Source: an uncultured Bacillota bacterium (GTDB lineage: Bacteria > Bacillota_I > Bacilli_A > RF39 > UBA660). From it: DNA of 51,217 nt. The translations under genes and the position numbers were made by a program. The notes under the pieces were generated by a model. The model did not search any database, had not been told where the DNA came from, and saw nothing but the letters and a program-made list of their open reading frames with translations. Below, piece by piece: positions 907 through 48,161 of the stretch. The stretch lies in contig CALBBI010000057.1 of assembly GCA_937926935.1 (NCBI GenBank), forward strand, positions 1 to 51,217. The letters run 5' to 3'. Position 1 is the stretch's first letter; each line of letters opens with the position of its first letter.

Positions 907-932
907 TGTGGATAACTTTAATTTTATCCACA
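907..932. promoter_or_regulatory. Inverted pair of perfect DnaA boxes (TGTGGATAA-N8-TTATCCACA)
   Basis: tgtggataactttaattttatccaca. Both 9-mers match the TTATCCACA consensus. The identical 26-mer recurs at 29025..29050. It can also fold as a 9-bp hairpin. Confidence 0.7.
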
Positions 933-8325: not shown

Positions 8326-8449
8326 TATATCTCTCCTTCCGCCATGTTATATTCATAACATAGATTTCGCTTCGTCTTATGTATTATATCATAGTTTTTA
8401 GCAATTTCAATAAATTTGAGTGATTTTTTTTACAAAGAGTGGCAGTAAT

Positions 8450-18271: not shown

Positions 18272-19651
18272 TTATTTATCAATAATAATCGTTATTTTGT
18301 GTTCTAAAGGTTCGTCAGTTTCATTGTAACTTATTCTAATTCCTTGATTTTGGAGTTTAGTTATAGTTTCTTTTATCGTGGTAATGGAATTATTTAGTGA
18401 ACTTGAAACTTGGTTAATTGGTTCAAGTGATTCCACCATACTCATGGGGTCAAATAATTCTTCTTGTTTAGGTGTTGATTCTTGGTATGCTGGAGTAGTA
18501 TTATTTGGTTCCGGAGTGAAGAAACGATTATTTGGGTTTAATTCAATTGGGGTTTCGAAAGTATTAAAATCAGGAGCTGGGGTTGCAATGGTTTCTTCTT
18601 GTTTTGGAGTTGGGTCAAAGATTTCAATATCTTTTTTAGGTTGTTGTTCTGGTGTAGTTAAAGTATCGAAAGAAGTTGGAGTATCAAAGTTGAAATTTAA
18701 CTCAGGAGCACTATTCATATTAAAAGTATTTTCAGCAGAGAAGGCATTGTTCCCATTAACATTAGCCGGAGTACTTTCTAAGGTATTAAAGAATTTATTG
18801 ACTGGACTTTGGTTGTCTTCAGTAGGCATGTTAGACATTATATCCATGCTATTTGGAACATTAATTGTTGTCATATTGCTAGGATTTTGAGGTAGGGAAC
18901 TACTATAGTCAGTTAGAACATCTTCTGGTACCATCATATTCGCCACATTTCTATTTTTATTTGGATTGATATCTACAGCTTTATCTTTGATTTCTTCAAC
19001 GTTTGGATTGATATCTACTAAAGGAATTTCTTTATTAGTAGTGTTTTTCTTTAGAACTTGTTTTAGTTCTTGGTCTAGTTGTCTTACAGTCATACGGTCA
19101 GTTATAATGCGGTTAAGCCATTCTTTTTGGGCAGTTTTACTATCTAGTGATAGAAGGGCACGGGCATGACGTTCGCTTATTCTTCCTTCTAAAAGAGCTT
19201 GTTGGACTTCATCATCAAGATTTAGAAGACGGAGTTTATTGGCAATAGCAGATTGTGAGATACCCATTTTTTTAGCTAGTTGTTCTTGAGTTAGATAGCC
19301 TTTATCAAGAAGATTTTTGTAGCTTCTAGCTTCTTCAATTGGGGTTAGATCTCTTCGTTGGATATTTTCAACTAATGCTACTTCGGCACTGGAGTTATCG
19401 TCAATATTAGAAATTACAGCAGGAACTGTAGTGAGGCCAGCCATTTGGGATGCTTTATATCTTCTTTCGCCAGCGATTATTTCATATTTACTGCCAAGTT
19501 TGCGTAATACTAAGGGTTGAATTATCCCATGTTCTTTTATAGACGCCGCTAGTTCTTTTAGACCTTGATCGTCGAAAGAAAGTCGTGGTTGAAACCTATT
19601 TGGGATTATATCGTCGATATTTACCTGTACTATTTGTGATTCCATTTGCAT
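18272..19651 (-). CDS. noc: ParB-family CTP-dependent DNA-binding protein, Noc-like, with a roughly 200-aa low-complexity insertion
   Basis: ParB N-domain (IPNRFQPR, GIIQPLVLR, IIAGERRYKA). HTH LTQEQLAKKMGISQSAIANKLRLLNL...ISERHARALL. Residues at the ParB/Noc specificity positions read Q-K-N-R. It lies immediately downstream of rsmG, as B. subtilis noc does. Residues about 205-415 are N/P/T/F-rich. The last 40 aa (ITTIKETITKLQNQGIRISYNETDEPLEHKITIIIDK) look like the C-terminal dimerisation domain. An in-frame TGA 9 nt upstream of the ATG fixes the N-terminus. Confidence 0.75.
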   Translation of the reverse strand: MQMESQIVQVNIDDIIPNRFQPRLSFDDQGLKELAASIKEHGIIQPLVLRKLGSKYEIIAGERRYKASQMAGLTTVPAVISNIDDNSSAEVALVENIQRRDLTPIEEARSYKNLLDKGYLTQEQLAKKMGISQSAIANKLRLLNLDDEVQQALLEGRISERHARALLSLDSKTAQKEWLNRIITDRMTVRQLDQELKQVLKKNTTNKEIPLVDINPNVEEIKDKAVDINPNKNRNVANMMVPEDVLTDYSSSLPQNPSNMTTINVPNSMDIMSNMPTEDNQSPVNKFFNTLESTPANVNGNNAFSAENTFNMNSAPELNFNFDTPTSFDTLTTPEQQPKKDIEIFDPTPKQEETIATPAPDFNTFETPIELNPNNRFFTPEPNNTTPAYQESTPKQEELFDPMSMVESLEPINQVSSSLNNSITTIKETITKLQNQGIRISYNETDEPLEHKITIIIDK

Positions 19652-25989: not shown

Positions 25990-26289
25990 TTATCAACAAT
26001 AAAATGAAAACAACCTGTGGATAACTTTTTAGTTGTGCACAACTTTTACTCCAAAAATGGGTGATTTTTAAAGTTATCCACAATATCCACAGGCATTTTT
26101 TTGGCGTACTTCAGCCAAAAAATGTACTAAATATTAGTTATCCACAGGGGCTGTGGATAACTTTTGGTAATTTGTCCACATTGTTGATAAGTAAATTGTG
26201 GATAATGTGGATAAGTCATTAAAGATAAGTATACACCGAGAAAAAAATGTGGATAAAATGTGGATAACATGTGAATTTCTTGTGAATAA
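25990..26289. promoter_or_regulatory. oriC part 1: DnaA-box cluster upstream of dnaA
   Basis: Perfect TTATCCACA/TGTGGATAA boxes at 26016, 26074, 26138, 26152, 26197, 26206, 26248 and 26259 (start coordinates). One-mismatch boxes at 25990, 26083, 26172, 26182 and 26281. Confidence 0.9.
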
Positions 26290-26333
26290 CTAAAAAAAAC
26301 TTCCCAAAATTTAAAAAATAGAGTACAATACTG

Positions 26334-27728
26334 GTGATAGATTTGGTTAGCGGGGTGATGATTTTGGACAATCAGGATTTATGGAGCAAATTTCTATCAT
26401 TGCTACAACAAAAAATAAATCCAATCACATTTAATACATGGTTTAAACCATTAAAATTACATGAAATAGATACTTTAAAGAACAAAATCGTCATTCAAGT
26501 ACCAATGGCAGTCCATAAAAAAGTGCTAGAAACTAGCTGGTATCAGCTTTTGGAAGATGCTTTGACTGAATTAACTAACGTTACTTATGAGATTTCTTTT
26601 GTTCTAGAAGATGAGACTGTGGATAACTTTGAAATTGTCAACAACCAGACTCCTGAAGTTAAAAAAACTAGTAATAAAGAATTCATAACGAATTTAAAAA
26701 AAGAGTTTACTTTTGATAACTATGTTACTGGAGATACTAACAAATTTGCCAAAACTGCGGCGATTGCAGTGGCACAACAACCAGGTAAAATATATAATCC
26801 ATTGTTTATTTATGGTAAAAGTGGGCTAGGAAAAACCCACTTAATGCACGCAATAGGTAATTATATAGTAGAAAATAGTAATTTAAGAGTTTTATACACA
26901 ACTAGTGAGAATTTTAAGGATGATTATACGAGTATTGCCAGTACTAACGGGGCAGAATCGTCATTTGAAAGAGCTGATTATTTTAAAAATAAATATCGAG
27001 ATGTGGATGTTTTGTTGATAGACGATATCCAATTCTTAGTAGGAGCTGAAAAAACACAGCAAGGGTTCTTTCATACATTTAATGAACTACACAGTCACAA
27101 TAAGCAAATTATAATTACATCTGATAGGTCGCCAGAAGATTTAAAATTACTAGAGGAGCGTCTTCGAAGCAGGTTTGCATGGGGACTTCCCGTAGATATT
27201 TATCCACCGGATTTAGACCTAAGAGTAAGGATAATTAAAGATAAAATAAAGTATCTTAGTGTTGCAAAAATGATAAGTGATGATGTAATTATGTACATTG
27301 CGAACTCATGCGATACGGATGTAAGAGAAATTGAAGGGGCAATCAATAGACTAGCAGCTTATGTGGCTGTTTATACCCCAACAAAGATAGATTTAGATTT
27401 TGCCCAAGAGGCTTTAGGGGATTATATAAGTAAAAATATTTATTCAAATAACGATATTTCCATGGTTCAAAAGGCCGTTGCGGACTATTATGGATTTACA
27501 ATTGATGTTCTAAAAGGAAAGAAAAAGTCCAAGAACATTGCGTATCCTAGAATGCTTGCGATGTACTTAGCTAGAATGCTTACCGATGAGTCATTTCCAA
27601 GAATTGGCCTAGAATTTGGAGGTAGAGATCATTCTACCGTAATTCATGCTGTGGATAAAATCACAGAAGACCTTAAAGATAATAAAAAATTACAAGAAAT
27701 TGTTAATGAAATTAAAGCAAAAATCTAA
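26334..27728 (+). CDS. dnaA: chromosomal replication initiator protein DnaA
   Basis: AAA+ Walker A GKSGLGKTHL, Walker B LLIDDIQF, C-terminal DNA-binding signature (FGGRDHSTVIHA). The true start is uncertain: GTG 26334, ATG 26358, or TTG 26364 (4 nt after GGGGTGAT). Confidence 0.95.
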   Translation: MIDLVSGVMILDNQDLWSKFLSLLQQKINPITFNTWFKPLKLHEIDTLKNKIVIQVPMAVHKKVLETSWYQLLEDALTELTNVTYEISFVLEDETVDNFEIVNNQTPEVKKTSNKEFITNLKKEFTFDNYVTGDTNKFAKTAAIAVAQQPGKIYNPLFIYGKSGLGKTHLMHAIGNYIVENSNLRVLYTTSENFKDDYTSIASTNGAESSFERADYFKNKYRDVDVLLIDDIQFLVGAEKTQQGFFHTFNELHSHNKQIIITSDRSPEDLKLLEERLRSRFAWGLPVDIYPPDLDLRVRIIKDKIKYLSVAKMISDDVIMYIANSCDTDVREIEGAINRLAAYVAVYTPTKIDLDFAQEALGDYISKNIYSNNDISMVQKAVADYYGFTIDVLKGKKKSKNIAYPRMLAMYLARMLTDESFPRIGLEFGGRDHSTVIHAVDKITEDLKDNKKLQEIVNEIKAKI

Positions 27729-27742
27729 ACATGTGAATGGAT

Positions 27743-27866
27743 TGTGGATAACTATCTGAGTTATCCACAGGGCAAAATGCCCAAAATTTGGCATAAATAT
27801 GGGTAAAAGCAAAAAGTTATCCACATTATCCACAGTATTATGATTATGAATATATATAAAAGAAGG
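27743..27866. promoter_or_regulatory. oriC part 2: DnaA boxes plus AT-rich candidate unwinding element between dnaA and dnaN
   Basis: Perfect boxes at 27743 (TGTGGATAA) and 27761, plus a head-to-tail tandem at 27817 and 27826 (TTATCCACA). The tandem is followed directly by gtattatgattatgaatatatataaaag. Confidence 0.8.
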
Positions 27867-29024: not shown

Positions 29025-29050
29025 TGTGGATAACTTTAATTTTATCCACA
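29025..29050. promoter_or_regulatory. Inverted pair of perfect DnaA boxes (second copy of the 26-mer at 907..932)
   Basis: tgtggataactttaattttatccaca, identical to 907..932. Lies just after the dnaN terminator-like hairpin. Confidence 0.7.
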
Positions 29051-30793: not shown

Positions 30794-32702
30794 TGATTAT
30801 AATGATAATGATATTCAAGTATTAGAAGGCTTGGAAGCGGTAAGAAAAAGACCCGGAATGTATATTGGTACAACAGGAGAAGCTGGGCTACATCATTTAG
30901 TATGGGAGATTGTTGATAATGCTGTTGATGAAGCTTTAGCAGGATATTGTGATGATATTGAAGTTGTTGTGGAAAAAGGCAACGTTATTGCAGTTAAAGA
31001 TGATGGTCGTGGTATTCCTACAGGTACTAATGCAAAAACTGGTTTATCCACAGTTGAAACTATTTTTACAGTATTACATGCTGGTGGTAAATTCGGAGGT
31101 GGCGGATATAAAGTATCAGGTGGACTTCATGGTGTAGGTGCTAGTGTTGTTAATGCTTTATCCACATGGCTTGAAGTAACAATTTATCGTGATGGTAAAA
31201 TATATTTTCAACGTTTTGAAAATGGTGGACATTCGGTTGAACCACTAAAAGTTATAGGAGATTGTGATATAAATAGAACAGGTTCTACAGTAAGGTTTAA
31301 AGCTGACCCTGAAATATTTAAGGAAACAACAATTTATAACTATGATACTTTAGCTAAGAGATTACAAGAAATTGCCTTTTTAAATAAGGGATTAAGAATT
31401 GTCTTGATTGATGAAAGAGAAGATAATAGGAAAGATGAATTTGTTTATGAGGGTGGAATTATTGAATTTGTTCACTTATTAAACAAGAATAAAACCCCTA
31501 TTAATCCGGAAGTTATTTATGTAGAAGGTAAAGAAGATAATATTTTGATTGAAGTTGCGATGCAATATAATGATGGCTATAATGAAGCAGTTTATTCTTA
31601 TACTAACAATATTCATACTCATGAAGGGGGAACTCATGAAGATGGAGTTAAAAGAGCATTAACAAGAATTATTAACAATTATGCTAGAAGTGCTAAGATG
31701 TTAAAGGATAATGCGCCTGCTTTAATTGGTGATGATGTAAGAGAAGGCTTAACAATGATTGTTTCATGTAAGCATCCAGACCCACAATTTGAAGGGCAAA
31801 CTAAGACAAAGCTTGGAAATATTGAAGTAAGAAAGATTGCTGATGATGTGTTTAGTGAAGGACTGGAAAGATATTTAATGGAAAATCCTGAGATTGCTAA
31901 GCGTATTGTAGAGAAAGCTATGACGGCATCTCGTGCCCGTGAAGCAGCAAAAAAAGCTCGTGATTTACAAAGAAAAACTAAAGATGGTTTAGATTTATCA
32001 AATCAATGGGGTAAACTTACAGATTGTACAAGTAGAGATTCTAAAGAATGTGAAATTTTTATCGTCGAAGGAGATTCAGCTGGTGGTTCGGCCATTGGTG
32101 GTAGAAATAATCGTACACAAGCAGTATTACCTTTAAGAGGAAAAATATTAAATGTAGAAAAAGCACGTCTTGATAGAGCATTATCTAATGAAGAAATTAG
32201 AAGTATGATAACAGCGTTTGGTACAGGTATTGGTGATGATTTTGATATCAATAAATTAAGATATGACAAAATAATTATAATGACTGATGCCGATGTCGAT
32301 GGAGCACATATTAGAATTCTATTATTAACTTTATTCTATAGATTCTTTAGACCATTATTGGAAACTGGACATATTTATATAGCTCAACCACCATTGTTTA
32401 AGATATCATGGGGTAAAAATTTCCATTATGTATTAACAGAGGATGAAAAAAATGAATTTTTAAAAACTTTACCAGCAAATGTTAAAGTAGATATAGCTCG
32501 TAACAAAGGTTTAGGTGAAATGGACCCAGAAGAACTTTGTGAAACAACAATGGATATTAATAATAGAACTTTGGTTCAAGTTTCTTTAGAGGACGCTATG
32601 GATGCTGATGGAGTATTTAATACTTTAATGGGTGAAGAAGTAGAACCAAGAAGAAAATTTATTGAAGAAAATGCTCACTATGTTGAGAATTTGGATTACT
32701 AG
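30774..32702 (+). CDS. gyrB: DNA gyrase subunit B
   Basis: [23 protein letters not shown] ATPase, Toprim EGDSAGGS and [20 protein letters not shown] 6 nt before the ATG. Overlaps recF by 20 nt. Confidence 0.95.
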
Positions 32703-35187: not shown

Positions 35188-36050
35188 TTAACAATGTTTC
35201 ACGTGAAACATTGTTAACTTATTTAAATAGAAATACATATTTAGAAATAGATATGTATTTTTTTATATGTTTCACGTGAAACATAGTGGATAAATATTTA
35301 TTTTAATAAGCATTAATTATTTAATAAATAAAAAAATATTAAAATTATAATAAGTCCAGCAACAATTTTAAAAGTCAACTCAATGTTTCACGTGAAACAT
35401 TGAGGATAACTTTTGGATTTTGTAAAAAAATGTATTTATTATTTGCTATATTATTACAGATAAATACGTATTTTATGGGAATTTATAAGCATTTTAGCGA
35501 GAATACCAATGTTTCACGTGAAACATTGGGTGTTTATAGGTAAACAATAGCAATAATTAATCTACATATCTGTTTTATATAATTTTTAATTTATTTTTAT
35601 AAATAATTAATCAAAGTATATATGTTTCACGTGAAACATTGTTAATTAATTTAAAATTTCAATTAACTTTTTTTCATATTTTTAAAATGCACTAATGAAG
35701 ATTTATTTTTTATACGTGATGAATTATTATTTTTAATATTTCTATATCTTATATGAGTTTCAATACTAAATTTATTTCATTTTTTCTAATGTTTCACGTG
35801 AAACATAGTTGATAATTGTTTTAATTTTGCGGAATTAAAGTCAATGAGATAGGGTTTTTACTTTATTTTATAAATGTTAGGTAGTTATTTGACCATGTTC
35901 TAAGTTAAAGATACAAAAGCCCAATGTTTCACGTGAAACATTAAGGATAATACATTAAATAAAGGATAACCATAAATATAATTTTAACTTAAATGGACTG
36001 ATATATCGTTTTAAAATGATAATTACTATGTTTCACGTGAAACATAGTAA
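35188..36050. repeat. Array of eight identical perfect parS sites (ATGTTTCACGTGAAACAT; core TGTTTCACGTGAAACA) in non-coding DNA
   Basis: 18-mer copies at 35194..35211, 35267..35284, 35383..35400, 35509..35526, 35622..35639, 35789..35806, 35924..35941 and 36028..36045. Start-to-start spacing is 73, 116, 126, 113, 167, 135 and 104 bp. Some copies sit in longer palindromes: 30 bp at 35188..35217, 26 bp at 35379..35404, 24 bp at 35506..35529, 28 bp at 36023..36050. Spacers are AT-rich and unrelated to each other. Confidence 0.9.
35231..35264 (+). terminator. AT-rich hairpin plus T-run, candidate gyrA terminator
   Basis: AAATACATAT-N10-ATATGTATTT followed by TTTT. The 30-bp parS palindrome at 35188..35217 could also act as a terminator hairpin. 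Confidence 0.4.
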
Positions 36051-36214: not shown

Positions 36215-36244
36215 TTGATTTTATAAGAAATTATGTTATATAAT
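36215..36244 (+). promoter_or_regulatory. promoter candidate for the SRP RNA
   Basis: TTGATT (36215..36220), 18-nt spacer, TATAAT (36239..36244). The RNA 5' end is predicted about 6 nt downstream. Confidence 0.45.
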
Positions 36245-36248
36245 ATAT

Positions 36249-36327
36249 GCGTGCAACAATTATATAGGAACCTGGTCAGAGTAGGAATACAGCAGCCATA
36301 ACTATCCCTGTTTGTGTGCACTTTTTT
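36249..36327 (+). ncRNA. ffs: signal recognition particle RNA, short (4.5S-like) form
   Basis: CCUGGUCAGAGUAGGAAUACAGCAGCCAUAA matches the universally conserved domain IV (E. coli CCAGGUCAGGUCCGGAAGGAAGCAGCCAAGG). This includes the GGAA tetraloop closed by GUA/UAC. 5' GUGCA pairs with 3' UGCAC, followed by a T6 run. Ends are approximate. Confidence 0.75.
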
Positions 36328-36375
36328 ATTGGAATTTGTGCATACATATGTAGTAAGCTAGTTTGGAGTATAACT

Positions 36376-36792
36376 ATGGAAAAATATTTAGAAAAATTAT
36401 ATAATTTAGCTTTAGAGTCATCAAAAAACGGTGATATTCCTGTAGGATGTATCATAATTAAAAATGGAAATATTTTATCCACAGGCTATAATACCCGTAA
36501 ATGTGATAATTTAGTTATTGGTCATGCAGAAATTAACGCTATTTGTGAAGCAGAAAAAATTTTAGGTGATTTTAGACTTAATGGTTGTATACTTCTTACT
36601 ACGCTTAAGCCTTGTAAGCTTTGTTTTGAGGCAATAGAGGCCTCTAGAATAGATAAAGTGTATTATTTGCTTGACCAAAATTTAAATGGCTTGTATGAGC
36701 CTTTAAAATACGTTAAACTTGATATTGGAAATAATGAATATATAGATAAATATAAAAAATTATTTTTGAATTTTTTTAAGAATATGAGATAA
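36376..36792 (+). CDS. tadA: tRNA-specific adenosine deaminase
   Basis: Zinc motifs HAEINAI and PCKLC. ATG at 36376 has a GGAG SD. The upstream extension in the ORF track overlaps the SRP RNA and is unlikely to be translated. Confidence 0.85.
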   Translation: MEKYLEKLYNLALESSKNGDIPVGCIIIKNGNILSTGYNTRKCDNLVIGHAEINAICEAEKILGDFRLNGCILLTTLKPCKLCFEAIEASRIDKVYYLLDQNLNGLYEPLKYVKLDIGNNEYIDKYKKLFLNFFKNMR

Positions 36793-36844: not shown

Positions 36845-38494
36845 ATGGAATATAAAGTTCTTTATCGAAAATATAGACCACAGAATTTTGATTCTTTAGT
36901 AGGTCAAGAATATACAAAAACATTATTAAAAAATGCTATAAAAAATGAACATATTTCGCATGCTTATATTTTTACTGGCCCCCGTGGTACCGGTAAAACA
37001 AGTTCTGCTAAAATATTTGCTAAGGCTTTAAATTGCTTAAATCCAAAAGATGGAAATCCTTGTAATGAGTGTGAAATGTGTAAAAGTTTTGGAACAAATC
37101 CAGATATAATTGAGATAGATGCTGCTTCTAATAATGGAGTAGATGAAATAAGAGAAATAATTAATAATGTTCGATTAGCTCCAGCAAATTCAAAGTATAA
37201 AGTATATATCGTTGATGAATTTCATATGCTATCTACTAGTGCTTTTAATGCTTTATTATTAACATTGGAAGAACCACCATCTAATGTAGTATTTATATTA
37301 GCAACAACGGATATTCAAAGTGTTCCAATTACAGTTTTATCACGTTGTCAAAGATTTGATTTTAAACCAATTGCAGTTGATGATATAGTTAATCGTTTAA
37401 ATTATGTTTGTATCGAAGAAAAAATTGATATAACGAATGCTGCTTTAAAAGAAATAGCTTATATGAGTAATGGTGGTATGCGTGATGCATTAAGTATTTT
37501 GGATCAAATTTCTTCACGTAATACTAAAATAGATGTAGATGATGTTACAAGCAATTTTGGAAGTATTTCAAATAAAAAAGTAAAAGAGTTTATGGATGTA
37601 TTTACTTCTGGGGATGTTAAAGGCACTTTAGAACTATTAAAAGAATTTAAAAATAATGGTATCGATGTAAGAATATTAATTGAAAAGCTGATAGATAGAA
37701 TAAAATTAATCTTAATAGATATAAAATTAGATAATTATAATGGTATTCTTGATTTTGATATGCTTTATAGTATGGTTTTTGAATTAAATAGAGTACTTCA
37801 AGAAATTAAGAGTAATATCGATCCATATAATTTCTTAGAAATTGTAATTTTAAAATATTTCCCGGGAAATAAAATTTCAAGTAAAGATTTTAAAGATCCA
37901 GTCGAGGAAAAAAAGAGTGGTTCTACTTTGAAAATAGAGCAAAAAGTCGAAGAAAGACCAACTAAAGAAAATATTTCCCAGGAAATAAAAGAGAGTAAAG
38001 AACCTGAAATAAATAATGAGGCTCCAATAGTTAATGAAAAAAAGGCTCACTTTAATATAGACGCTAGAATTAATAATACTTTTGTCGGAGCTCAAAAAAA
38101 GTATTTGTTAGAGCTAAAAGAGAAATGGGACGATTTTGTTATTTATGAAAGTAATGCGAATAAGTTGTTACTTTCTTATATAGTAGATACTGAGCTTGTT
38201 GCAGCATCTAATAATTATGCTGTATTGGTTAATAAGATAAATAATACTAATGATTTAATTAATGAGAATATTGAATCAGTAGAAAAAGATTTTAAAATAT
38301 TCTTTGGTAGAGAATATAAATTAGTGTCTATTTCACCAAAAGTATGGGAAGAGGCACGTAATAAGTATATTACTAACTTAAAAAGTGGTTATAAATATAC
38401 TATGATGGATGATTCCATAATTATTGAAGAAAATACTAGTGAGTTGGAGAAGCTAGCTAATGAAATTTTTGGAAATAATTATGAAACAAAATAG
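36845..38494 (+). CDS. dnaX: DNA polymerase III subunit gamma/tau
   Basis: AAA+ GPRGTGKTS, zinc module CLNPKDGNPCNECEMC, SRCQRFDF. 549 aa. Confidence 0.95.
   Translation: MEYKVLYRKYRPQNFDSLVGQEYTKTLLKNAIKNEHISHAYIFTGPRGTGKTSSAKIFAKALNCLNPKDGNPCNECEMCKSFGTNPDIIEIDAASNNGVDEIREIINNVRLAPANSKYKVYIVDEFHMLSTSAFNALLLTLEEPPSNVVFILATTDIQSVPITVLSRCQRFDFKPIAVDDIVNRLNYVCIEEKIDITNAALKEIAYMSNGGMRDALSILDQISSRNTKIDVDDVTSNFGSISNKKVKEFMDVFTSGDVKGTLELLKEFKNNGIDVRILIEKLIDRIKLILIDIKLDNYNGILDFDMLYSMVFELNRVLQEIKSNIDPYNFLEIVILKYFPGNKISSKDFKDPVEEKKSGSTLKIEQKVEERPTKENISQEIKESKEPEINNEAPIVNEKKAHFNIDARINNTFVGAQKKYLLELKEKWDDFVIYESNANKLLLSYIVDTELVAASNNYAVLVNKINNTNDLINENIESVEKDFKIFFGREYKLVSISPKVWEEARNKYITNLKSGYKYTMMDDSIIIEENTSELEKLANEIFGNNYETK
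37856..37871. promoter_or_regulatory. perfect Noc-binding-site palindrome (TATTTCCCGGGAAATA) inside dnaX
   Basis: Exact 16-mer. Begins at codon position 1 and encodes Y-F-P-G-N-(K). Confidence 0.75.
37972..37987. promoter_or_regulatory. degenerate NBS-like site (TATTTCCCAGGAAATA, one central mismatch) inside dnaX
   Basis: 15 of 16 match to the NBS 16-mer. The reading frame differs from the perfect sites. Confidence 0.35.
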
Positions 38495-38511
38495 AAGAGG
38501 AGAATAAATTT

Positions 38512-38808
38512 ATGAATATGCAAAATTTAATGGCTCAAGCACAAAGAATGCAAAGAGATATTATGAAGAAAAAAGAGGAAGTAGGTAAACAATTATTTAC
38601 AGGAAAGTCGGAATTAGTTGAAGTTACAATGAATGGTAATAAAGAAGTAACTGAAGTAGTAATAAAAAATGAAGATTTAACTAAAGATGATATTGAAGTA
38701 CTTCAAGATATGATTATGATTGCCACAAATGATGCTATTAAGAATGTTGATCAAGCTATGGAAAAAGCTATGGGTCAATATGGAAGTGCTCTTAACGGAT
38801 TATTTTAA
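38512..38808 (+). CDS. ybaB: YbaB/EbfC family nucleoid-associated protein
   Basis: 98 aa, MNMQNLMAQAQRMQ.... Canonical dnaX-ybaB-recR order. Confidence 0.9.
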   Translation: MNMQNLMAQAQRMQRDIMKKKEEVGKQLFTGKSELVEVTMNGNKEVTEVVIKNEDLTKDDIEVLQDMIMIATNDAIKNVDQAMEKAMGQYGSALNGLF

Positions 38809-39407
38809 TGATATATCCTGCTAATTTATTGGAATTAATTGAATACTTTAAGAAATTGCCTGGTATTGGCGAAAAGAGTGCTGAACGTATGGCACTGGCA
38901 ATTTTAGATATGTCTTTAGAGGAAGTTGCTGATTTTTCTTTAGCCTTAAATACGGCCAAAAAGAAATTAAAGAGATGTAGTATTTGTGGTGGTTTAACAG
39001 ATGAAGATGTATGTTATGTTTGCCGAGATATTTCGAGAAATCATAACGTAATATGTGTTTTAGAGGACTTTAAAGGCGTTTTTGCTTTTGAAAAGGCTGG
39101 TAAGTATAATGGGGTGTATCATGTTTTAGATGGGCTTATTTCACCAATTGATGACAGAGGGCCTGAAGATATTAATTTATCTTCACTAATTGATAGAGTA
39201 AAAACTTTGGAAAATCCTGAAGTTATTATAGCTTTGAAGCCGTCTATTGAAGGAGAAACGACTACTTTATATATAAAGAAGATATTAGAAGATAAAGGGG
39301 TTAAAATATCTCGTTTGTCTTATGGTATTCCAATGGGTGTTGATATTGATTATTTGGATGAGATTACACTTCTTAATGCCTTAAATGATAGAAAAGATAT
39401 ATCATAA
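38808..39407 (+). CDS. recR: recombination protein RecR
   Basis: HhH N-terminus (LPGIGEKSAERMA), Cys4 finger CSICGGLTDEDVCYVC, Toprim domain. Confidence 0.95.
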   Translation: MIYPANLLELIEYFKKLPGIGEKSAERMALAILDMSLEEVADFSLALNTAKKKLKRCSICGGLTDEDVCYVCRDISRNHNVICVLEDFKGVFAFEKAGKYNGVYHVLDGLISPIDDRGPEDINLSSLIDRVKTLENPEVIIALKPSIEGETTTLYIKKILEDKGVKISRLSYGIPMGVDIDYLDEITLLNALNDRKDIS

Positions 39408-39450
39408 ATTATAGTAAGCCTAATATAATTATATTGGTTGGTGATTAACT

Positions 39451-39636
39451 ATAAAAAAAGTATATTTTGTTATAAGAAAATTAGTTTTTTCCTTTTTAAT
39501 GTTATATGGTTTAAATGTTATGTTAAAGTATGTTAACGTCATTATTCCTATTAATATTATAAATATAATAATTACTTATTTTTTAGGTGGTTTTGGTGTA
39601 TTAGCACTAGTTATTATAAAATTATTGATAATATGA
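39451..39636 (+). CDS. BofA-like small membrane protein (pro-sigma-K processing inhibitor family); proposed ATA start
   Basis: Own translation: (ATA)KKVYFVIRKLVFSFLMLYGLNVMLKYVNVIIPINIINIIITYFLGGFGVLALVIIKLLII. The C-terminal IPxN...LGxxGVLxLV resembles BofA. Position after recR matches B. subtilis recR-yaaL-bofA. ATA lies 5 nt after GGTGAT. The only canonical start (ATG 39499) has no SD and would cut TM1. Confidence 0.45.
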   Translation: MKKVYFVIRKLVFSFLMLYGLNVMLKYVNVIIPINIINIIITYFLGGFGVLALVIIKLLII

Positions 39637-39652
39637 TTGATTGGTGGTAGTT

Positions 39653-40486
39653 ATGTTTGAAGCAGATAAATTTAATGAATTGAAAAAGAAATATGAGGAT
39701 AATAAGCTTTCTCATGCTTTTTTAATTGAAACAAATAATTACGAATTATGTTTGAATGATATAAAACAACTATTAAAGATTGTTAATTGTCCTGACAAGT
39801 ATATGAGTGATTGTACTGAACAATGCAATTTATGTAAATTAATTGATTTATTGAATTTACCTAGTATTATAATTGTTGAGCCAGATGGTATGAGTATAAA
39901 AAAACAACAACTTAATGAGTTGCAAGAAAAGTTTAGTACTAAACCTGTGTATTCAAGGTATAATACATATATAATAAAAGATGCTGATATGATGAATGAT
40001 TCTGCTTCAAACTGTATGTTAAAATTTTTAGAAGAACCGGAAGATAATATTTTAGGGTTCTTTATAACTACTAATAAAGAGAGAGTAATTGATACGATAA
40101 AGAGTCGTTGTCAAATTATGAAAATCGACTATGCGACTAAGAGTGTAGTTGATGAGAAAATAATTGAATATGCAAATGAATATGTAAGAAGAATTTTGGA
40201 AAATTGTGATTTGATAGTAAATAAAGAATTTATTTTACCGTCTTTTGGTACGAGAAATGAAATTAATTCTTTGTTAACTGTTATTTTTGATATGTATATG
40301 AGTGCAATTAGTGAAAAATATTTCCCGGGAAATAAAAAAAATGACGTTTTATCAGGAATTTCTCTTGAACAATTAAAAAATCAAATTCCAATTATAGAAA
40401 AAACTATAACATTAAATCAAGCAAATGTAAGTTTAGAGCTATTATTAGATCAGTTTGTCATAGAAATGAGGAGAGCTAATGCGTAA
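39653..40486 (+). CDS. holB: DNA polymerase III delta' subunit
   Basis: Clamp-loader fold; LSHAFLIE, FLEEPEDN, SRCQIMKI. Followed by ricT, as in B. subtilis. Confidence 0.85.
   Translation: MFEADKFNELKKKYEDNKLSHAFLIETNNYELCLNDIKQLLKIVNCPDKYMSDCTEQCNLCKLIDLLNLPSIIIVEPDGMSIKKQQLNELQEKFSTKPVYSRYNTYIIKDADMMNDSASNCMLKFLEEPEDNILGFFITTNKERVIDTIKSRCQIMKIDYATKSVVDEKIIEYANEYVRRILENCDLIVNKEFILPSFGTRNEINSLLTVIFDMYMSAISEKYFPGNKKNDVLSGISLEQLKNQIPIIEKTITLNQANVSLELLLDQFVIEMRRANA
40319..40334. promoter_or_regulatory. perfect Noc-binding-site palindrome inside holB
   Basis: TATTTCCCGGGAAATA. Codon position 1; encodes YFPGN(K). Confidence 0.75.
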
Positions 40487-41279
40487 TATTTATGGTGTAG
40501 AATTTAAACCAAATGGAAAAATTTATTATTTTAATGCAGAAAAATTAGAATGTCCAATTAATGTAACGGTTATTGTTCGAACAGAACGAGGAGAACAATT
40601 TGGTAAAGTTGTAATGAAAATTAATGAGACTGATTTAAAAACTTCGATTGATGAGATTAGTCCAATAATTCGTATTGCAACCAAAAATGATTATAAGAAA
40701 CATTTAAGTTTATTGAAGGAACAAGAAGAAGCTATGAATTATGCTAAAGAAGTTGCTAATGAATTAAACTTGAATATGCGTTTTATGGATTCGAGCTTTA
40801 CCTTTGATAGAAAACAATTATTATTAAATTTCTTGGCTGATGAACGTATTGATTTTCGTGAACTTGCGAAAAGAATGGCTGGTAAATTTAAAACAAGAAT
40901 TGAATTAAGACAAATTGGGGCCCGTGATAAAGCTAAAAGTATTGATGGATATGGTGTATGTGGGAGAAGACTGTGTTGTGCTGGTTTTTTAAATCATATT
41001 GATTCTATAAGTATGAATATGGCTAAGAATCAAAATATTGCTTTGAATCCTTCTAAAATTAATGGTTGTTGTGGTAGATTATTATGTTGTTTAACTTATG
41101 AAGATGAACAATATAGTTGTTGTCGTGTCGGGATGCCTACTGTTGGTAAGAAGATTACTTTAGAGCAAGGTGAAGGCAAAGTTATATCTGTTGATATATT
41201 AAATAGAAAATATAAAGTTTTAATTGGAAATGAAGTTAAGGAGATTGAACTAGATAATAATGAAAGTAGTAAAGAATGA
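40479..41279 (+). CDS. ricT: PSP1-domain protein RicT (YaaT)
   Basis: PSP1 C-terminal domain with a Cys cluster (CGRRLCCAGF...NGCCGRLLCCLTYE). Syntenic with holB. Confidence 0.85.
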   Translation: MRNIYGVEFKPNGKIYYFNAEKLECPINVTVIVRTERGEQFGKVVMKINETDLKTSIDEISPIIRIATKNDYKKHLSLLKEQEEAMNYAKEVANELNLNMRFMDSSFTFDRKQLLLNFLADERIDFRELAKRMAGKFKTRIELRQIGARDKAKSIDGYGVCGRRLCCAGFLNHIDSISMNMAKNQNIALNPSKINGCCGRLLCCLTYEDEQYSCCRVGMPTVGKKITLEQGEGKVISVDILNRKYKVLIGNEVKEIELDNNESSKE

Positions 41280-41964
41280 TTTATTTGATTATGGATTAGA
41301 AATATATCAAGATGAGAAATTATTTAAATTTTCTTTAGACTCAATATTACTTGCCGAATTTGTAGAAAATAAGGCCGGATTAAATACAATAGTTGATTTT
41401 TGTTGTGGTAATGGGGCTGTGCCTTTGATACTTTCAACTAGAGTTAATAGTAAAATAATTGGTTTTGAATTACAAAAAAATGTCTTTCAATTAGCATATA
41501 ATTCGGTTATACTTAATAATTTAGAAAAACAAGTTAAAATTATTAATGCGAATCTTAATGAGAGCTTGGAATATATTTTACCTGAATCTGTTGATGCGGT
41601 TACTTGTAATCCGCCTTATTTTAAGTTAAATAAAGGGTCATATGTTAATACAGAAGAAAGTTTAGCTATAGCTCGTCATGAAATAAAAACTAATTTAGAA
41701 GAAATTGTAATGACGGCTAAATATATTTTAAAAAATAAAGCACCTTTGTATTTAGTGCATCGTCCAGAAAGATTAATGGAACTTATAGGGATTTTAACTA
41801 AATATAAATTTAGTGTTAAAAAGTTACAATTTGTTTATGCAGGATATCAAAAGAGTGCTATAATGGTTCTTATTAAAGCGACAAAAAATGGTTCTGATGG
41901 CTTGATTGTTAATCCGCCAGTAAATGTATTAGAGCATAGGAGTTATAAGAGAATTTTTGATTAG
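41260..41964 (+). CDS. SAM-dependent methyltransferase, YabB/TrmN6-like (tRNA m6A37 family)
   Basis: DFCCGNGAVPL SAM motif and CNPPYF motif. Position equivalent to B. subtilis yabB. Confidence 0.7.
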   Translation: MKVVKNDLFDYGLEIYQDEKLFKFSLDSILLAEFVENKAGLNTIVDFCCGNGAVPLILSTRVNSKIIGFELQKNVFQLAYNSVILNNLEKQVKIINANLNESLEYILPESVDAVTCNPPYFKLNKGSYVNTEESLAIARHEIKTNLEEIVMTAKYILKNKAPLYLVHRPERLMELIGILTKYKFSVKKLQFVYAGYQKSAIMVLIKATKNGSDGLIVNPPVNVLEHRSYKRIFD

Positions 41965-41977
41965 GATGTGATATAAA

Positions 41978-42529
41978 ATGAAGTTAATTGTTGGTATTGG
42001 AAATTATGGTAAAGAGTATGAATGTACAAGACATAATATTGGGTTTATGGTGTTAGATTATTTCCCGGGAAATAAAAAATTTGTCAAAAAGTTCAATGCT
42101 TTATGTTGTGAAGAAAATATTAATGGTGAAAAAGTTATTTTTATAAAGCCTTTAACGTACGTTAATCTTTCAGGAGATGCCGTTGCCAAATTTGCTAATT
42201 ATTATAAAATTGAAAATAAAGATATTTTGATTATTCAAGATGATTTAGACTTATCATTTCTAAAATATCGGTTAAAATATAAAAGTAGTGCGGGCGGACA
42301 TAATGGAATGAAGTCAATAATTGCTTCTTTAGGAACTGATATGGTTCCTCGGTTGAAAATTGGTATTGCGCATGATAGAAGTATGGATACTAAAGATTAT
42401 GTTTTAGGAAGAATTAGTAAAGAAAATTTAGAACAATTTAATGAAATGGCTCCAATATTTAAAGATATCATAGTAGATTTTGCTAATCATGATATAGAGT
42501 ATTGTATGCAAAAGTATAATAAGAAATAG
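41978..42529 (+). CDS. pth: peptidyl-tRNA hydrolase
   Basis: VGIGNYGKEYECTRHNIGF, KPLTYVNLSG, GGHNGMKSI. Confidence 0.95.
   Translation: MKLIVGIGNYGKEYECTRHNIGFMVLDYFPGNKKFVKKFNALCCEENINGEKVIFIKPLTYVNLSGDAVAKFANYYKIENKDILIIQDDLDLSFLKYRLKYKSSAGGHNGMKSIIASLGTDMVPRLKIGIAHDRSMDTKDYVLGRISKENLEQFNEMAPIFKDIIVDFANHDIEYCMQKYNKK
42059..42074. promoter_or_regulatory. perfect Noc-binding-site palindrome inside pth
   Basis: TATTTCCCGGGAAATA. Codon position 1; encodes YFPGN(K) in a segment that is variable between Pth proteins. Confidence 0.75.
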
Positions 42530-45500: not shown

Positions 45501-45766
45501 AACTAGCTAATAGTTTAGGAATAACAAAGGTTGTACAGAATAATACTTTAGTAGAGATAGAACTACCAACTACTTTAGTTCATAATTTGAAATTCGATAA
45601 GTTATTTATTCAAGCTTATAATATTTCAAGAAAATTTCAATTTCGTTCAGTATTAAATAAAGTATATATTACTTTACCTGTGAATAATTTAGATAAACAT
45701 TTTGTCTATTATTTGGTAGATTTATTAAATTTAATAAAAGATGAAGTGGATAAATTAAGTAATTAA
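42539..45766 (+). CDS. mfd: transcription-repair coupling factor
   Basis: 1075 aa. RNAP-interaction domain GDYVVHEAHGIGIY. Helicase motifs GDVGFGKTEVA, VDEEQRFG, SATPIPRT, QLYQIRGRVGRS. Confidence 0.95.
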   Translation: MNYLNELYNYVNNSEVIGLTKELNVFYVNQYFESHDENVLVLANSLYEANQYYDLLSTLNKDVLIFPMDDFISSVAVAISPDLKIKRLETLNQLKDNKKHIVVTNLMGLLRYLPDYKYANKTQFELKKGMQISRDKFIQILDEFGYTKESMVAATGEYAVRGFIIDLFIIEQEHPVRIEFFGDEIDSVRVFDENNQLSIKEIDKITVLPYIEIETANKSSILDYLGKPFVFMIEKSQIDAGYAKLCDEIMEYNQSLNENKKYMFEMEELNISNWIYLDSLEVLNDNKFHYQTKEIENFNSNFDLLENYVKNKLKGNNTVIFYLSNKNEIDDIIEIFPTARITTGNEIITNQVNIISKKIDNGFEIFNYCVIAEFDIEKINHKEIKYKNSYRIGKRIHNFDQLEVGDYVVHEAHGIGIYSGVVTLDNHGIKKDYLLIKYDGDDKVYVPVEKISNIFKYSSKDGDVPKINKLNSTSWEKTKRAMQKKVHDISMELIKLYAERAKIKGPAFKSDPIEDLFDADFKYVPTADQEKAFKDINLDLEKDVPMDRLLCGDVGFGKTEVAFRAMFKTVVNNMQVSYLCPTTILSKQQYENALERFKNFPVEIALLNRFTTPKETERILEGLKNGTIDIVFGTHRLLSKDIEYKNLGLLIVDEEQRFGVTHKERIKQYKNDVNVLTLSATPIPRTLKMAMSGLRDLSIIDTAPVNRYPVQTYVMAESDMVVKDAIYKELARKGQIFILYNHVDGLENKRSELQKLVPEARIVMAHGRMNKSEIEDVMDDFINYKYDILLCTTIIETGIDIPNANTLIIFDADRFGLSQLYQIRGRVGRSNKIAYAYLMYDKNKMLNDIAIKRLQAIKEFTELGSGYRIAMRDLSLRGAGDILGSDQAGFVSAVGLDLYMKMVDEEIKKIHGEEIPKEDTSNKALINVDTHISDEYVSDESLKIEIHQKINEIDSYEKLESIQQEIEDRFGKIDEKIMVYMYEEWFEKLANSLGITKVVQNNTLVEIELPTTLVHNLKFDKLFIQAYNISRKFQFRSVLNKVYITLPVNNLDKHFVYYLVDLLNLIKDEVDKLSN

Positions 45767-45786
45767 GAGGCTTTGGTCTCTTTTTT
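45767..45786 (+). terminator. weak Rho-independent terminator candidate after mfd
   Basis: GAGGC-UUUG-GUCUC (includes one G.U pair) followed by T6. Confidence 0.35.
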
Positions 45787-45812
45787 GCTATTTTGGTTAT
45801 AAAAAAGTTACT

Positions 45813-45821
45813 TGTGGATAA
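45813..45821. promoter_or_regulatory. isolated perfect DnaA box 24 nt upstream of spoVT
   Basis: TGTGGATAA. Confidence 0.5.
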
Positions 45822-45844
45822 AATAAGGGTAGTGAGGTTATGAA

Positions 45845-46315
45845 ATGAATAATGGTTCGATTAAAAAAATAGATGAATTAGGACGTATTGTAATTCCTAA
45901 AGATATAAGAAAGAGATTATCAATAAAGAAAGATGATAGTTTAGAAATAAGTATTGATGATAATTATATAAAGTTAGTTAAAGCGGTAGCAATTAAGAAT
46001 TATGATGAGTATGTGATTGGGCTTTTGAAAATGCTTGTGGATAATATGCATGTAAAAATACTAGCGACAAACAGAGAAAAGGTTATTTTTAATAATACTG
46101 AGATTGACGATTTAGATGTTAAAAGATTGGTTGGATTATCATTATATGATTTAATGAAGGAAAAAGATAAGATTTGTAGTGCTTGTGATTTAAGACCAGT
46201 GATAATTGATTCGAATGTGGAAGGAATTATCTTAGTTAGTGATAGTAGTTGTAATGAAATAGTGGGTCAAATACTTAATATTTTGATTACAAATAAACTT
46301 GATATTTCATGTTAA
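45845..46315 (+). CDS. spoVT: stage V sporulation protein T-like (AbrB/SpoVT N-domain + C-terminal sensor-like domain)
   Basis: IKKIDELGRIVIPKDIRKRLSIKKDDSLEI is a swapped-hairpin AbrB domain. A further 100 aa follow at the C-terminus. Position after mfd, as in B. subtilis. Confidence 0.75.
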   Translation: MNNGSIKKIDELGRIVIPKDIRKRLSIKKDDSLEISIDDNYIKLVKAVAIKNYDEYVIGLLKMLVDNMHVKILATNREKVIFNNTEIDDLDVKRLVGLSLYDLMKEKDKICSACDLRPVIIDSNVEGIILVSDSSCNEIVGQILNILITNKLDISC

Positions 46316-48075: not shown

Positions 48076-48091
48076 TATTTCCCGGGAAATA
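48076..48091. promoter_or_regulatory. perfect Noc-binding-site palindrome, intergenic (metG-tatD)
   Basis: TATTTCCCGGGAAATA within a 22-bp perfect palindrome at 48073..48094, directly after the metG stop. Confidence 0.75.
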
Positions 48092-48126
48092 ATTGAAGAA
48101 AAATCATTCTTGTTCGTGTGGCAAAA

Positions 48127-48142
48127 TATTTCCCGGGAAATA
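48127..48142. promoter_or_regulatory. perfect Noc-binding-site palindrome, intergenic (metG-tatD)
   Basis: TATTTCCCGGGAAATA, 35 bp after the previous site and 20 bp before the tatD start. Confidence 0.75.
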
Positions 48143-48161
48143 AAATTGAAAGTAGGATAAT

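What the first reader, a model, noticed from the sequence alone, without database searches (positions are those of the whole stretch)
37856..42074. Perfect Noc-binding-site palindromes embedded in three unrelated genes, always in the same codon phase (peptide YFPGNK)
- **What the sequence shows:** TATTTCCCGGGAAATA is the NBS consensus (ATTTCCCGGGAAAT core) described for B. subtilis Noc. It occurs exactly in dnaX (37856), holB (40319) and pth (42059).
- **Why chance is unlikely:** CCCGGG is very improbable in a genome of about 29% GC. I found CCCGGG only at the five NBS sites in the whole window.
- **Same reading frame:** In all three genes the palindrome starts at codon position 1, so the proteins carry K/D-Y-F-P-G-N-K(-K). 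This falls in regions that are not conserved in these families. For example, B. subtilis Pth has an unrelated sequence after FMVID.
- **Shared flanks:** AAATATTTCCCGGGAAATAAAA(A/T) is shared beyond the 16-mer.
- **Interpretation:** This looks like selection for a DNA-binding site overriding, or co-opting, protein sequence. Alternatively the same short cassette was inserted repeatedly in frame.
- **Possible decayed copy:** A one-mismatch site (TATTTCCCAGGAAATA, 37972) lies 100 bp downstream in dnaX in a different frame.
Basis: partly seen in the sequence, partly recalled or inferred. Interest (0 to 1): 0.7.

Follow-up and report, generated by a model that had tools for sequence, protein, structure and literature searches.

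The report
Noc-binding sites written into genes
Five perfect copies of the 16-base DNA site bound by the division regulator Noc sit next to the replication origin of a gut Firmicute; three lie inside essential genes, where selection on the DNA has fixed the peptide YFPGN, but their shared reading frame is what codon usage predicts.

Summary
TATTTCCCGGGAAATA occurs five times (37856 dnaX, 40319 holB, 42059 pth, 48076 and 48127 intergenic), plus a one-mismatch copy at 37972. None is expected by chance.

The three intragenic copies start at codon position 1 and read Y-F-P-G-N-K.

A Noc-type ParB-family gene lies in the same window (18272-19651, minus strand, next to rsmG). It has NBS-type specificity residues Q173, K179 and R201.

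In syntenic relatives whose Pth is only 60-70% identical, the pth site keeps the exact rare codons TTC and CCG, while synonymous sites around it are saturated. Selection therefore acts on the DNA, not on the peptide.

- In pth the site arose by substitution.
- In holB and dnaX it sits in insertion-prone loops.
- In two relatives, dnaX and holB share a near-identical 36-nt cassette of NBS plus a DnaA box (perfect in three of the four copies).

The shared codon phase is not special. The base after the site is almost always A, so phase 2 gives a TAA stop, and codon usage favours phase 1 over phase 3 by 78:22.

Unusual features:
- The sites form a conserved island beside an array of eight parS sites.

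The parts
37856..37871 (.). Perfect NBS inside dnaX. It starts at codon position 1 and reads Y338-F-P-G-N-K, at the start of the variable linker after domain III.
   Evidence: Of 120 same-species DnaX variants, 119 keep YFPGNK although the adjoining linker is highly polymorphic.
37972..37987 (.). One-mismatch NBS (TATTTCCCAGGAAATA) in dnaX, in phase 3 (N-I-S-Q-E-I). A perfect site here would need the very rare codon CGG.
   Evidence: CGG accounts for 5 of 14,745 codons. The site is the same in strain L001, and the ISQEI peptide it encodes is kept in about 112 of 120 same-species DnaX variants.
40319..40334 (.). Perfect NBS inside holB (delta-prime), codon position 1, reading Y227-F-P-G-N-K-K. 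It lies in a segment that is 6-9 codons longer than in orthologues without the site.
42059..42074 (.). Perfect NBS inside pth, codon position 1, reading Y28-F-P-G-N-K. It arose by substitution with no indel. The site is conserved at DNA level across relatives with 60-70% Pth identity.
48076..48091 (.). Perfect NBS in the 87-bp metG-tatD intergenic gap, starting one base after the metG stop codon. With its flanks it forms a 22-bp palindrome.
   Evidence: A site upstream of tatD is conserved in L086, L089 and L091.
48127..48142 (.). Second perfect NBS in the metG-tatD gap, 20 nt upstream of the tatD start codon.
   Evidence: In strain L001 it carries one mismatch.
18272..19651 (-). Noc-type ParB-family gene (459 aa) directly downstream of rsmG, and the presumed reader of the NBS sites. 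It has a ParB N-terminal domain with GERR, an HTH with Q173/K179/N184/R201, no N-terminal membrane-targeting helix, a linker of about 220 aa rich in N, P and T, and a C-terminal tail that by eye resembles the Noc dimerisation end.
   Evidence: The specificity code is from PMC7383237.
35195..36044 (.). Context: an array of eight perfect parS sites (TGTTTCACGTGAAACA) in the gyrA-tadA gap, about 1.8 kb upstream of the first NBS.
   Evidence: Arrays at the same position occur in the relatives.
26016..27834 (.). Context: oriC. DnaA-box clusters flank dnaA (26334-27728). The NBS island lies 11.5-21.8 kb to its right.
   Evidence: 31 boxes against 3.3 expected. The GC skew is positive and rising from about 26 kb rightward.

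Best explanation
The five palindromes are genuine loading sites (NBS) for the Noc-type ParB-family protein encoded 18 kb away in the same window. They form a conserved NBS island of about 10 kb on the right side of oriC, immediately after an array of eight parS sites.

This stretch is about 95% coding. Sites that selection keeps there must therefore mostly lie inside genes, and they sit where the host protein tolerates change:
- a variable helix of Pth;
- the DnaX linker;
- an indel-prone loop of HolB.

The proteins carry Y-F-P-G-N as a by-product. Phase 1 dominates for two reasons. The preferred 18-bp site (T-NBS-A) puts a TAA stop in phase 2, and phase 3 needs the very rare codons CGG and TCC.

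- **Shown:** sequence identity to the NBS; a Noc-type reader in the window; nucleotide-level conservation.
- **Inferred:** actual binding, CTP-dependent clamp loading, and spreading over the roughly 20 kb zone.
For: **Identity and non-randomness**
- There are five exact 16-mers and one near-exact copy, against zero expected.
- The sequence equals the NBS used in the Noc literature.

**Reader protein**
- ORF 18272-19651 sits next to rsmG. Its best NCBIfam hit is nucleoid_noc at 284.8 bits.
- Alignment to Noc structures gives GISQSAIANKLRLLNL...ISERHARAL, that is Q173, K179 and R201 of the QKKR code. One lysine at 179 or 184 is reported to be sufficient.
- The same long Noc lies on the same contig as an NBS-bearing pth in relative L091/L121.

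**Selection at DNA level**
- Most Pth homologues of 60-95% identity read YFPGN.
- In eight orthologues with DNA available, TAT, TTC, GGA and AAT are invariant and CCG is kept in 7 of 8. All 10 other invariant Gly columns and both other invariant Pro columns use 2-4 codons.
- TTC is 15% of Phe codons and CCG 10% of Pro codons. P(NBS codons | peptide) is 0.0032.
- Of 120 conspecific DnaX variants, 119 keep YFPGNK inside a hypervariable linker.
- The same motif also occurs outside coding sequence, twice in an 87-bp gap, and a site upstream of tatD is conserved in three relatives.

**Codon phase is explained**
- The base at +1 is A in 34 of 35 distinct sites.
- A codon model predicts 0.78:0:0.22 for phases 1, 2 and 3.
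- Sites judged independent across the clade split 6:0:1.
- Chance copies in viral contigs fall in all three phases, 8:5:9.
Against: - No binding data exist for this protein. It has N instead of K at position 184 and scores just below the curated Noc cut-off (284.8 against 315).
- It lacks the N-terminal amphipathic helix that canonical nucleoid occlusion requires. Its downstream function may therefore differ from that of B. subtilis Noc.
- Only about 61 kb around oriC could be inspected (window plus L092 and L093), so 'island' could be a sampling effect.
- Relative L090 keeps the peptide YFPGNN with a synonymous CCA in a 20-kb locus without any perfect NBS. The peptide can therefore outlive the perfect site.
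- The eight pth orthologues are not phylogenetically independent.
Confidence: 0.8

Rival explanations
1. Protein-level motif: YFPGN(K/N) is a functional peptide selected in DnaX, HolB and Pth (for example a shared interaction or modification site), and the DNA palindrome is a by-product.
For: - The peptide is widely conserved in Pth homologues.
- It is nearly invariant within the species in DnaX.
- L090 keeps YFPGNN although its DNA site has one mismatch.
Against: - The codons are fixed to rare synonymous choices (TTC, CCG), where codon usage predicts 0.3%.
- The same 16-mer occurs in intergenic DNA at 48076 and 48127, and in intergenic DNA of relatives.
- Orthologues without the DNA site have unrelated peptides or a gap at that position (NYLGD and TMNLD in Pth; a deletion in HolB).
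- Solved Pth structures have unrelated residues there.
Confidence: 0.03
2. Cassette origin: the intragenic sites were created by in-frame insertion or copying of a short NBS-containing DNA segment (ectopic conversion or templated insertion) rather than by point substitution. Selection then maintained them. This concerns origin and is compatible with the best explanation for function.
For: - HolB orthologues without the site are 6-9 codons shorter exactly there.
- The DnaX site sits in a variable-length segment at slightly different offsets in different lineages.
- In L082 and L084, dnaX and holB share a near-identical AATTATTTCCCGGGAAATAATTTTGTGGATAAAAAT (peptide NYFPGNNFVDKN), with one or two base differences among the four copies.
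- L089 carries a parS at the very same dnaX position.
Against: - pth shows no length change. Sister lineages read YFLGN or NYLGN, one or two substitutions away.
- In the window itself the three intragenic sites share only A-runs beyond the 16-mer.
- No mobile-element features were seen.
Confidence: 0.35
3. Different function: the NBS island is not a nucleoid-occlusion device. It is an origin-proximal loading zone for a second ParB-like clamp that lacks membrane targeting, acting in origin organisation or segregation, or in control of DnaA-dependent initiation.
For: - The Noc homologue and 117 of 120 listed homologues start about 23 residues later than B. subtilis and Geobacillus Noc, so they have no amphipathic helix.
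- All sites lie 11.5-21.8 kb right of dnaA, next to the parS array. None occurs in 34 kb to the left. The layout is the same in a relative over 43 kb.
- In relatives, NBS sites abut DnaA boxes and parS sites.
- S. aureus Noc restrains initiation (PMC5540599).
Against: - The genome-wide distribution is unknown.
- Conserved [KR]FF islands in the linker could be a relocated membrane or partner motif.
- No DnaA box lies next to any NBS in the window itself.
Confidence: 0.3
4. Chance or compositional artefact, or an effect of SmaI/XmaI (CCCGGG) restriction-site biology.
For: CCCGGG is rare in a 29% GC genome, so its absence outside the NBS sites is unremarkable (0.76 expected).
Against: - Zero 16-mer matches were found in 100 shuffles, against 6 observed.
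- The sites are conserved in position across diverged relatives.
Confidence: 0.01

Closest known systems
Bacillus subtilis Noc-NBS nucleoid occlusion system (Wu et al. 2009, cited from my own knowledge; Adams 2015 PMC4331003, not read here; Jalal 2020 PMC7383237; Jalal 2021 PMC8429893)
   Same: - Identical 16-bp site, TATTTCCCGGGAAATA.
- ParB-family reader encoded next to rsmG (gidB).
- GERR CTP-binding motif.
- Q173, K179 and R201 specificity residues.
- By eye, the C-terminal residues resemble the B. subtilis Noc C-terminus as I recall it.
   Different: - No N-terminal amphipathic membrane-targeting helix.
- N at position 184.
- A disordered linker of about 220 aa, giving 459 aa against about 283 aa.
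- No soj-spo0J genes beside it.
[quoted passage not shown]
Staphylococcus aureus Noc (Pang et al. 2017, PMC5540599)
   Same: - Same NBS core.
- Sites are origin-proximal.
- Noc spreads 8-10 kb around each site.
- Noc is linked to DnaA-dependent initiation, and the organism has ParB without ParA.
   Different: - S. aureus has 41 sites spread over ±700 kb.
[quoted passage not shown]
- No NBS-DnaA-box composites have been described there.
ParB-parS centromeres, including intragenic parS (for example the parS inside B. subtilis spo0J; my own knowledge, Lin and Grossman 1998)
   Same: - A 16-bp palindrome differing from the NBS at two positions per half-site.
- Clustered near oriC and tolerated inside coding sequence.
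- Relative L089 has a parS (reading V-S-R-E-T, phase 3) at the very dnaX position where the window has an NBS.
   Different: - A different reader specificity (RTAG-type residues).
- In phase 1, parS contains a TGA stop, so its permitted coding phases differ from those of the NBS.

Membership tests
Noc-NBS system (sites) | 16-bp palindrome TATTTCCCGGGAAATA (core ATTTCCCGGGAAAT) | tested here: met
   There are five exact copies and one with a single mismatch. The sequence string is found in the Noc papers.
Noc-NBS system (sites) | Sites scattered over the origin-proximal part of the chromosome and absent near the terminus | not testable with these tools
   Only about 61 kb around oriC was visible (window, L092, L093). 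Within it, all sites fall in a single 10.3-kb stretch on the right arm.
Noc (protein) | ParB-family N-terminal CTPase domain with GERRxR, plus an HTH DNA-binding domain | tested here: met
   Pfam ParB_N scores 116 bits and HTH_ParB 120 bits. IIAGERRYKA is present. The protein aligns to Noc structures 7NG0, 7NFU and 7OL9.
Noc (protein) | NBS specificity residues Q173, K179, K184, R201 (Caulobacter ParB numbering) | tested here: inconclusive
   Three of the four are present (Q, K, R), and position 184 is N. The paper reports that one lysine at 179 or 184 is enough. Of the listed homologues, 83 read QKNR. Binding was not measured.
Noc (protein) | N-terminal amphipathic membrane-targeting helix of about 10 aa, needed for nucleoid occlusion | tested here: not met
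   - Query residue 5 aligns to residue 26-28 of Geobacillus and B. subtilis Noc.
- The ATG has an RBS and an in-frame stop immediately upstream.
- 117 of 120 homologues share the short N-terminus.
Noc (protein) | Curated NCBIfam model TIGR04285 nucleoid_noc at or above its cut-off | tested here: not met
   The score is 284.8 bits against a cut-off of 315. It is the top hit, covering residues 6-208.
Noc (protein) | Gene located beside rsmG (gidB) in the origin region | tested here: met
   rsmG is at 19841-20557 and noc at 18272-19651, on the same strand. The arrangement is the same in L121.
Canonical ParB/Spo0J-parS | Reader with R173/G201-type residues; sites TGTTNCACGTGAAACA | tested here: not met
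   The window protein has Q173 and R201. parS sites exist at 35195-36044, but no second ParB gene is present in the window.

The most novel reading that the evidence does not exclude
In this Erysipelotrichales-like gut clade, the Noc paralogue has lost membrane targeting. Its sites have condensed into a conserved origin-proximal island abutting the parS array, and in some lineages they are fused into NBS-DnaA box-parS composites. The system would then be a second, ParB-like origin-organising or initiation-controlling clamp rather than a genome-wide nucleoid-occlusion device. The intragenic YFPGN-coding sites would be the footprint of strong positional selection for that island.
Probability: 0.2. 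Interest if true: 0.65.

Novelty: new variant of a known kind. Interest (0 to 1): 0.5.

Why it matters
- **Dual coding.** This is a clean natural example of a protein-binding DNA site fixing five codons, including rare ones, across family-level divergence and leaving a recognisable peptide (YFPGN) in unrelated essential proteins. That peptide can serve as a protein-level marker for intragenic NBS sites in metagenomes.
- **Reach of the NBS code.** The NBS code extends to an uncultured gut lineage whose Noc lacks the membrane helix.
- **Noc and replication.** The tight juxtaposition of NBS, parS and, in relatives, DnaA boxes offers a testable handle on how Noc-type clamps relate to origin function. 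That question has been open since the S. aureus work (PMC5540599).
- **Caution on reading frames.** A shared reading frame among palindromic sites needs a codon-usage and stop-codon null model before it is interpreted.

Tried and rejected
- **HolB scan of genome contigs.** It returned only the same species (Coprobacillus sp. CAG:605, 98% identity).
- **Pth alignment scan of metagenome contigs.** Most of the 80 loci were distant bacteria without NBS sites, and only L002-L007 were useful.
- **DnaX protein search.** All 120 listed hits were 97-100% identical conspecific variants. They were useless for deep comparison, so I used them as a population sample.
- **Extending the window to the right.** This gained only 1.7 kb.
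- **Chance.** Rejected.
- **Restriction-site avoidance.** Rejected. CCCGGG is expected only 0.76 times anyway.
- **Protein-motif explanation.** Rejected on codon invariance and the intergenic copies.
- **Terminator role for the intergenic pair.** No terminator-like structure was found. Only weak promoter-like matches overlap 48118-48146.
- **Codon phase as a signal.** Considered and rejected.


Full report
**1. The observation**

An exact search finds TATTTCCCGGGAAATA at 37856, 40319, 42059, 48076 and 48127, and TATTTCCCAGGAAATA at 37972. No dinucleotide-preserving shuffle gave a match. Relaxing to three mismatches adds nothing, so the sites are all-or-none. CCCGGG occurs only at the five perfect sites, with 0.76 expected.

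The host ORFs are as follows:
- DnaX (36845-38494);
- a delta-prime/HolB-like protein (39641-40486);
- Pth (41978-42529).

The last two sites lie in the 87-bp metG-tatD gap. Each intragenic site starts at codon position 1 and reads Y-F-P-G-N-K. The mismatch copy is in phase 3 and reads N-I-S-Q-E-I.

The 'shared flank' claim is only partly right:
- AAA follows the 16-mer at four of the five perfect sites.
- AAA precedes it at three of the five perfect sites.

**2. Context**

The window spans oriC:
- DnaA boxes cluster on both sides of dnaA (26016-26289 and 27743-27834), with 31 boxes against 3.3 expected.
- GC skew is positive and rising from about 26 kb rightward.

To the left lie rnpA-yidC-jag-mnmE-mnmG-rsmG and then a 459-aa ParB-family gene (18272-19651, minus strand). 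No parA or parB lies beside it.

The 1.1-kb gyrA-tadA gap holds eight perfect parS sites (35195-36044). The NBS sites start 1.8 kb after this array.

The organism is Coprobacillus sp. CAG:605 or a very close strain (HolB 98% identical to HF998235.1). That strain has the same sites, with one substitution in the second intergenic copy.

**3. Is there a reader?**

The 16-mer is the NBS used in the Noc literature. Jalal et al. (PMC7383237) show that NBS versus parS specificity is set by residues 173, 179, 184 and 201. Noc has QKKR and ParB has RTAG, and one lysine at 179 or 184 suffices.

Alignment of the window protein to Noc structures gives GISQSAIANKLRLLNL...ISERHARAL, that is Q173, K179, N184 and R201. 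Its best NCBIfam model is nucleoid_noc, at 284.8 bits against a cut-off of 315.

It is therefore Noc-type in its DNA-reading head and in its gene position. It differs from canonical Noc in two ways.
- **Short N-terminus.** It begins about 23 residues later than B. subtilis and Geobacillus Noc. It has a good RBS and an in-frame stop just upstream. It therefore lacks the N-terminal amphipathic helix that nucleoid occlusion requires (PMC8429893).
- **Long linker.** It carries a linker of about 220 aa rich in N, P and T.

A family of 420-500-aa homologues shares the short N-terminus (117 of 120) and the QKNR residues (83 of 120). Their linkers contain two conserved [KR]FF islands.

**4. Selection on DNA or on peptide?**

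Among the 120 best Pth homologues (60-95% identity), most read YFPGN(N/K) at this position. Sister sequences read YFLGN, NYLGN, HYLGN or YILGD.

I fetched DNA for syntenic relatives. The gene order gyrB-gyrA-tadA-dnaX-ybaB-recR-holB-ricT-MTase-pth-mfd is conserved.

The pth site in relatives:

| Locus | State of the pth site |
|---|---|
| L001, L082, L084, L086, L088, L089, L091 | perfect NBS |
| L090 | one synonymous change (CCG to CCA) |
| L002, L003 | no site; different peptide |

Across eight orthologues I compared codon use at amino-acid columns that never vary:

| Columns | Codon use |
|---|---|
| NBS codons TAT, TTC, GGA, AAT | invariant in all 8 |
| NBS codon CCG | 7 of 8 |
| The 10 other invariant Gly columns | 2-3 codons each |
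| The 2 other invariant Pro columns | 3-4 codons each |
| The 2 other invariant Phe columns | TTT (8 of 8 and 7 of 8) |

In the window's genes TTC is 15% of Phe codons, CCG 10% of Pro and GGA 30% of Gly. P(NBS codons | YFPGN) is 0.0032.

Within the species, 119 of 120 DnaX variants keep YFPGNK although the linker residues just after it are highly polymorphic.

The intergenic copies add to this: a site upstream of tatD is conserved in L086, L089 and L091. Together this shows that the constraint is on the nucleotide sequence. L090 shows that the peptide can persist after the perfect site is lost.

**5. Substitution or insertion?**

- **Pth.** It aligns without gaps to relatives and to solved Pth structures. 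The site replaces a variable stretch of equal length.
- **HolB.** Orthologues without the site are 6-9 codons shorter exactly there.
- **DnaX.** The site lies at the start of a variable-length linker, at slightly different offsets in different lineages. L003 has a site about 15 codons further on. L089 has a parS (V-S-R-E-T) at the same spot.
- **L082 and L084.** In these relatives dnaX and holB share a near-identical 36-nt stretch, AATTATTTCCCGGGAAATAATTTTGTGGATAAAAAT. This points to copying.

The window's own three sites show no similarity beyond A-runs.

**6. Codon phase**

Over 35 distinct sites, the base after the 16-mer is A in 34 and the base before it is T in 28. With A at +1, phase 2 reads ...AAA TAA, a stop.

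An independent-codon model built from the window's 14,745 codons gives the following:

| Model | Phase 1 | Phase 2 | Phase 3 |
|---|---|---|---|
| Bare 16-mer | 0.555 | 0.276 | 0.168 |
| 16-mer with A at +1 | 0.78 | 0 | 0.22 |

Phase 3 needs CGG, which accounts for 5 codons in 14,745. Three of three sites in phase 1 therefore has P of about 0.17 under the bare model and 0.48 under the +1 A model.

Intragenic sites that I judge independent across the clade split as follows:
- Six in phase 1: pth, dnaX proximal, dnaX in L003, holB, tadA, and the methyltransferase gene in L002.
- One in phase 3: metG in L002, reading ISREI.
- The decayed 37972 copy is also in phase 3.

This matches the model. As a control, 27 chance copies in viral contigs fall in phases 8:5:9. 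The longest-ORF heuristic used there is noisy in high-GC DNA. The common phase is real but expected.

**7. Why inside genes at all?**

Between 36.8 and 48.1 kb the intergenic DNA amounts to about 5% of the sequence. Two of the five sites nevertheless occupy one 87-bp gap. Non-coding DNA is therefore used when it is available.

All sites lie 11.5-21.8 kb right of dnaA. No NBS, parS or CCCGGG occurs elsewhere in the window, nor in 7.7 kb further left (L093) or 1.7 kb further right (L092).

In relative L091/L121, 43 kb of one contig shows the same layout. There is nothing on the left arm or at oriC, and three sites lie between tadA and tatD.

S. aureus Noc spreads 8-10 kb around each site (PMC5540599). 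Five sites in 10 kb would then give one continuous domain abutting the parS array. This last step is inference.

**8. Verdict**

- The reading as Noc-binding sites under DNA-level selection that dictates protein sequence is well supported.
- The cassette idea is supported for holB and dnaX, mainly from relatives.
- The codon-phase coincidence is explained by stop avoidance and codon usage.

The system is a variant of the known Noc-NBS kind. The site is canonical. The visible site distribution is an origin-proximal island rather than a scatter. Whether that island is all there is could not be tested.

Noticed in passing
window 35195-36044: Eight perfect parS sites (TGTTTCACGTGAAACA), 73-167 bp apart, fill the gyrA-tadA intergenic gap. 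Several are followed by near-DnaA boxes (aGTGGATAA, tGAGGATAA, aGTTGATAA, tAAGGATAA). No canonical ParB or ParA gene is present in the window. Arrays of 2-7 parS sites lie at the same position in most relatives (L090 has only one).
   Followed up: partly
window 18272-19651 (-): [quoted passage not shown] It has a linker of about 220 aa rich in N, P and T, with two family-conserved islands: NKFF (about residues 286-289) and LNPNNRFF (about 372-379). These are reminiscent of the SRFFG of the B. subtilis Noc membrane helix (recalled from my own knowledge) and could be a relocated membrane or partner motif.
   Followed up: partly
L002 3084-3130 and 4152-4197; L082 8231 and 8398; L084 5934 and 8367: In these relatives a perfect NBS is followed 2-4 nt later by a DnaA box (TGTGGATAA or TGTGAATAA). 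In L002 the order is NBS - DnaA box - parS within 47 nt, and this occurs twice. Seven of 33 NBS sites have a box within 30 nt, against about 0.3 expected. None in the window does.
   Followed up: partly
L089 5916-5973 (dnaX): Two parS sites lie inside the DnaX linker of this relative. The first is at exactly the alignment position where the window has its NBS, in phase 3 (N-V-S-R-E-T-L). The DnaX linker appears to be a recurrent landing pad for ParB-family sites.
   Followed up: partly
L091 16511-16544: Immediately upstream of the perfect tatD-upstream NBS lies a half-degenerate copy (TTATTTCCCGGGTTATA) that abuts it, giving a tandem arrangement.
   Followed up: no
window 36242-36337 (+) and 8333-8363 (-): Rfam finds a small SRP RNA that overlaps the first 22 nt of the longest tadA ORF (36316-36792), so the real tadA start is probably further downstream. 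Rfam also finds an L31 ribosomal-protein leader.
   Followed up: no
window 907-932, 29025-29050, 31044-31166, 45679-46044: Perfect DnaA boxes occur well outside oriC, some as close inverted pairs (907/924 and 29025/29042). In total there are 31 boxes in the window against 3.3 expected.
   Followed up: no
window 37870-38040 (DnaX residues about 343-393): Among 120 conspecific DnaX variants, 96 positions vary and they are concentrated in this linker. The region is hypervariable within the species.
   Followed up: partly
L090 (whole 20.5-kb locus): This relative has only one parS and no perfect NBS. It still encodes YFPGNN in Pth with CCA instead of CCG. This may be a lineage in which the Noc-NBS system is decaying. 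I could not check whether it has a noc gene.
   Followed up: no
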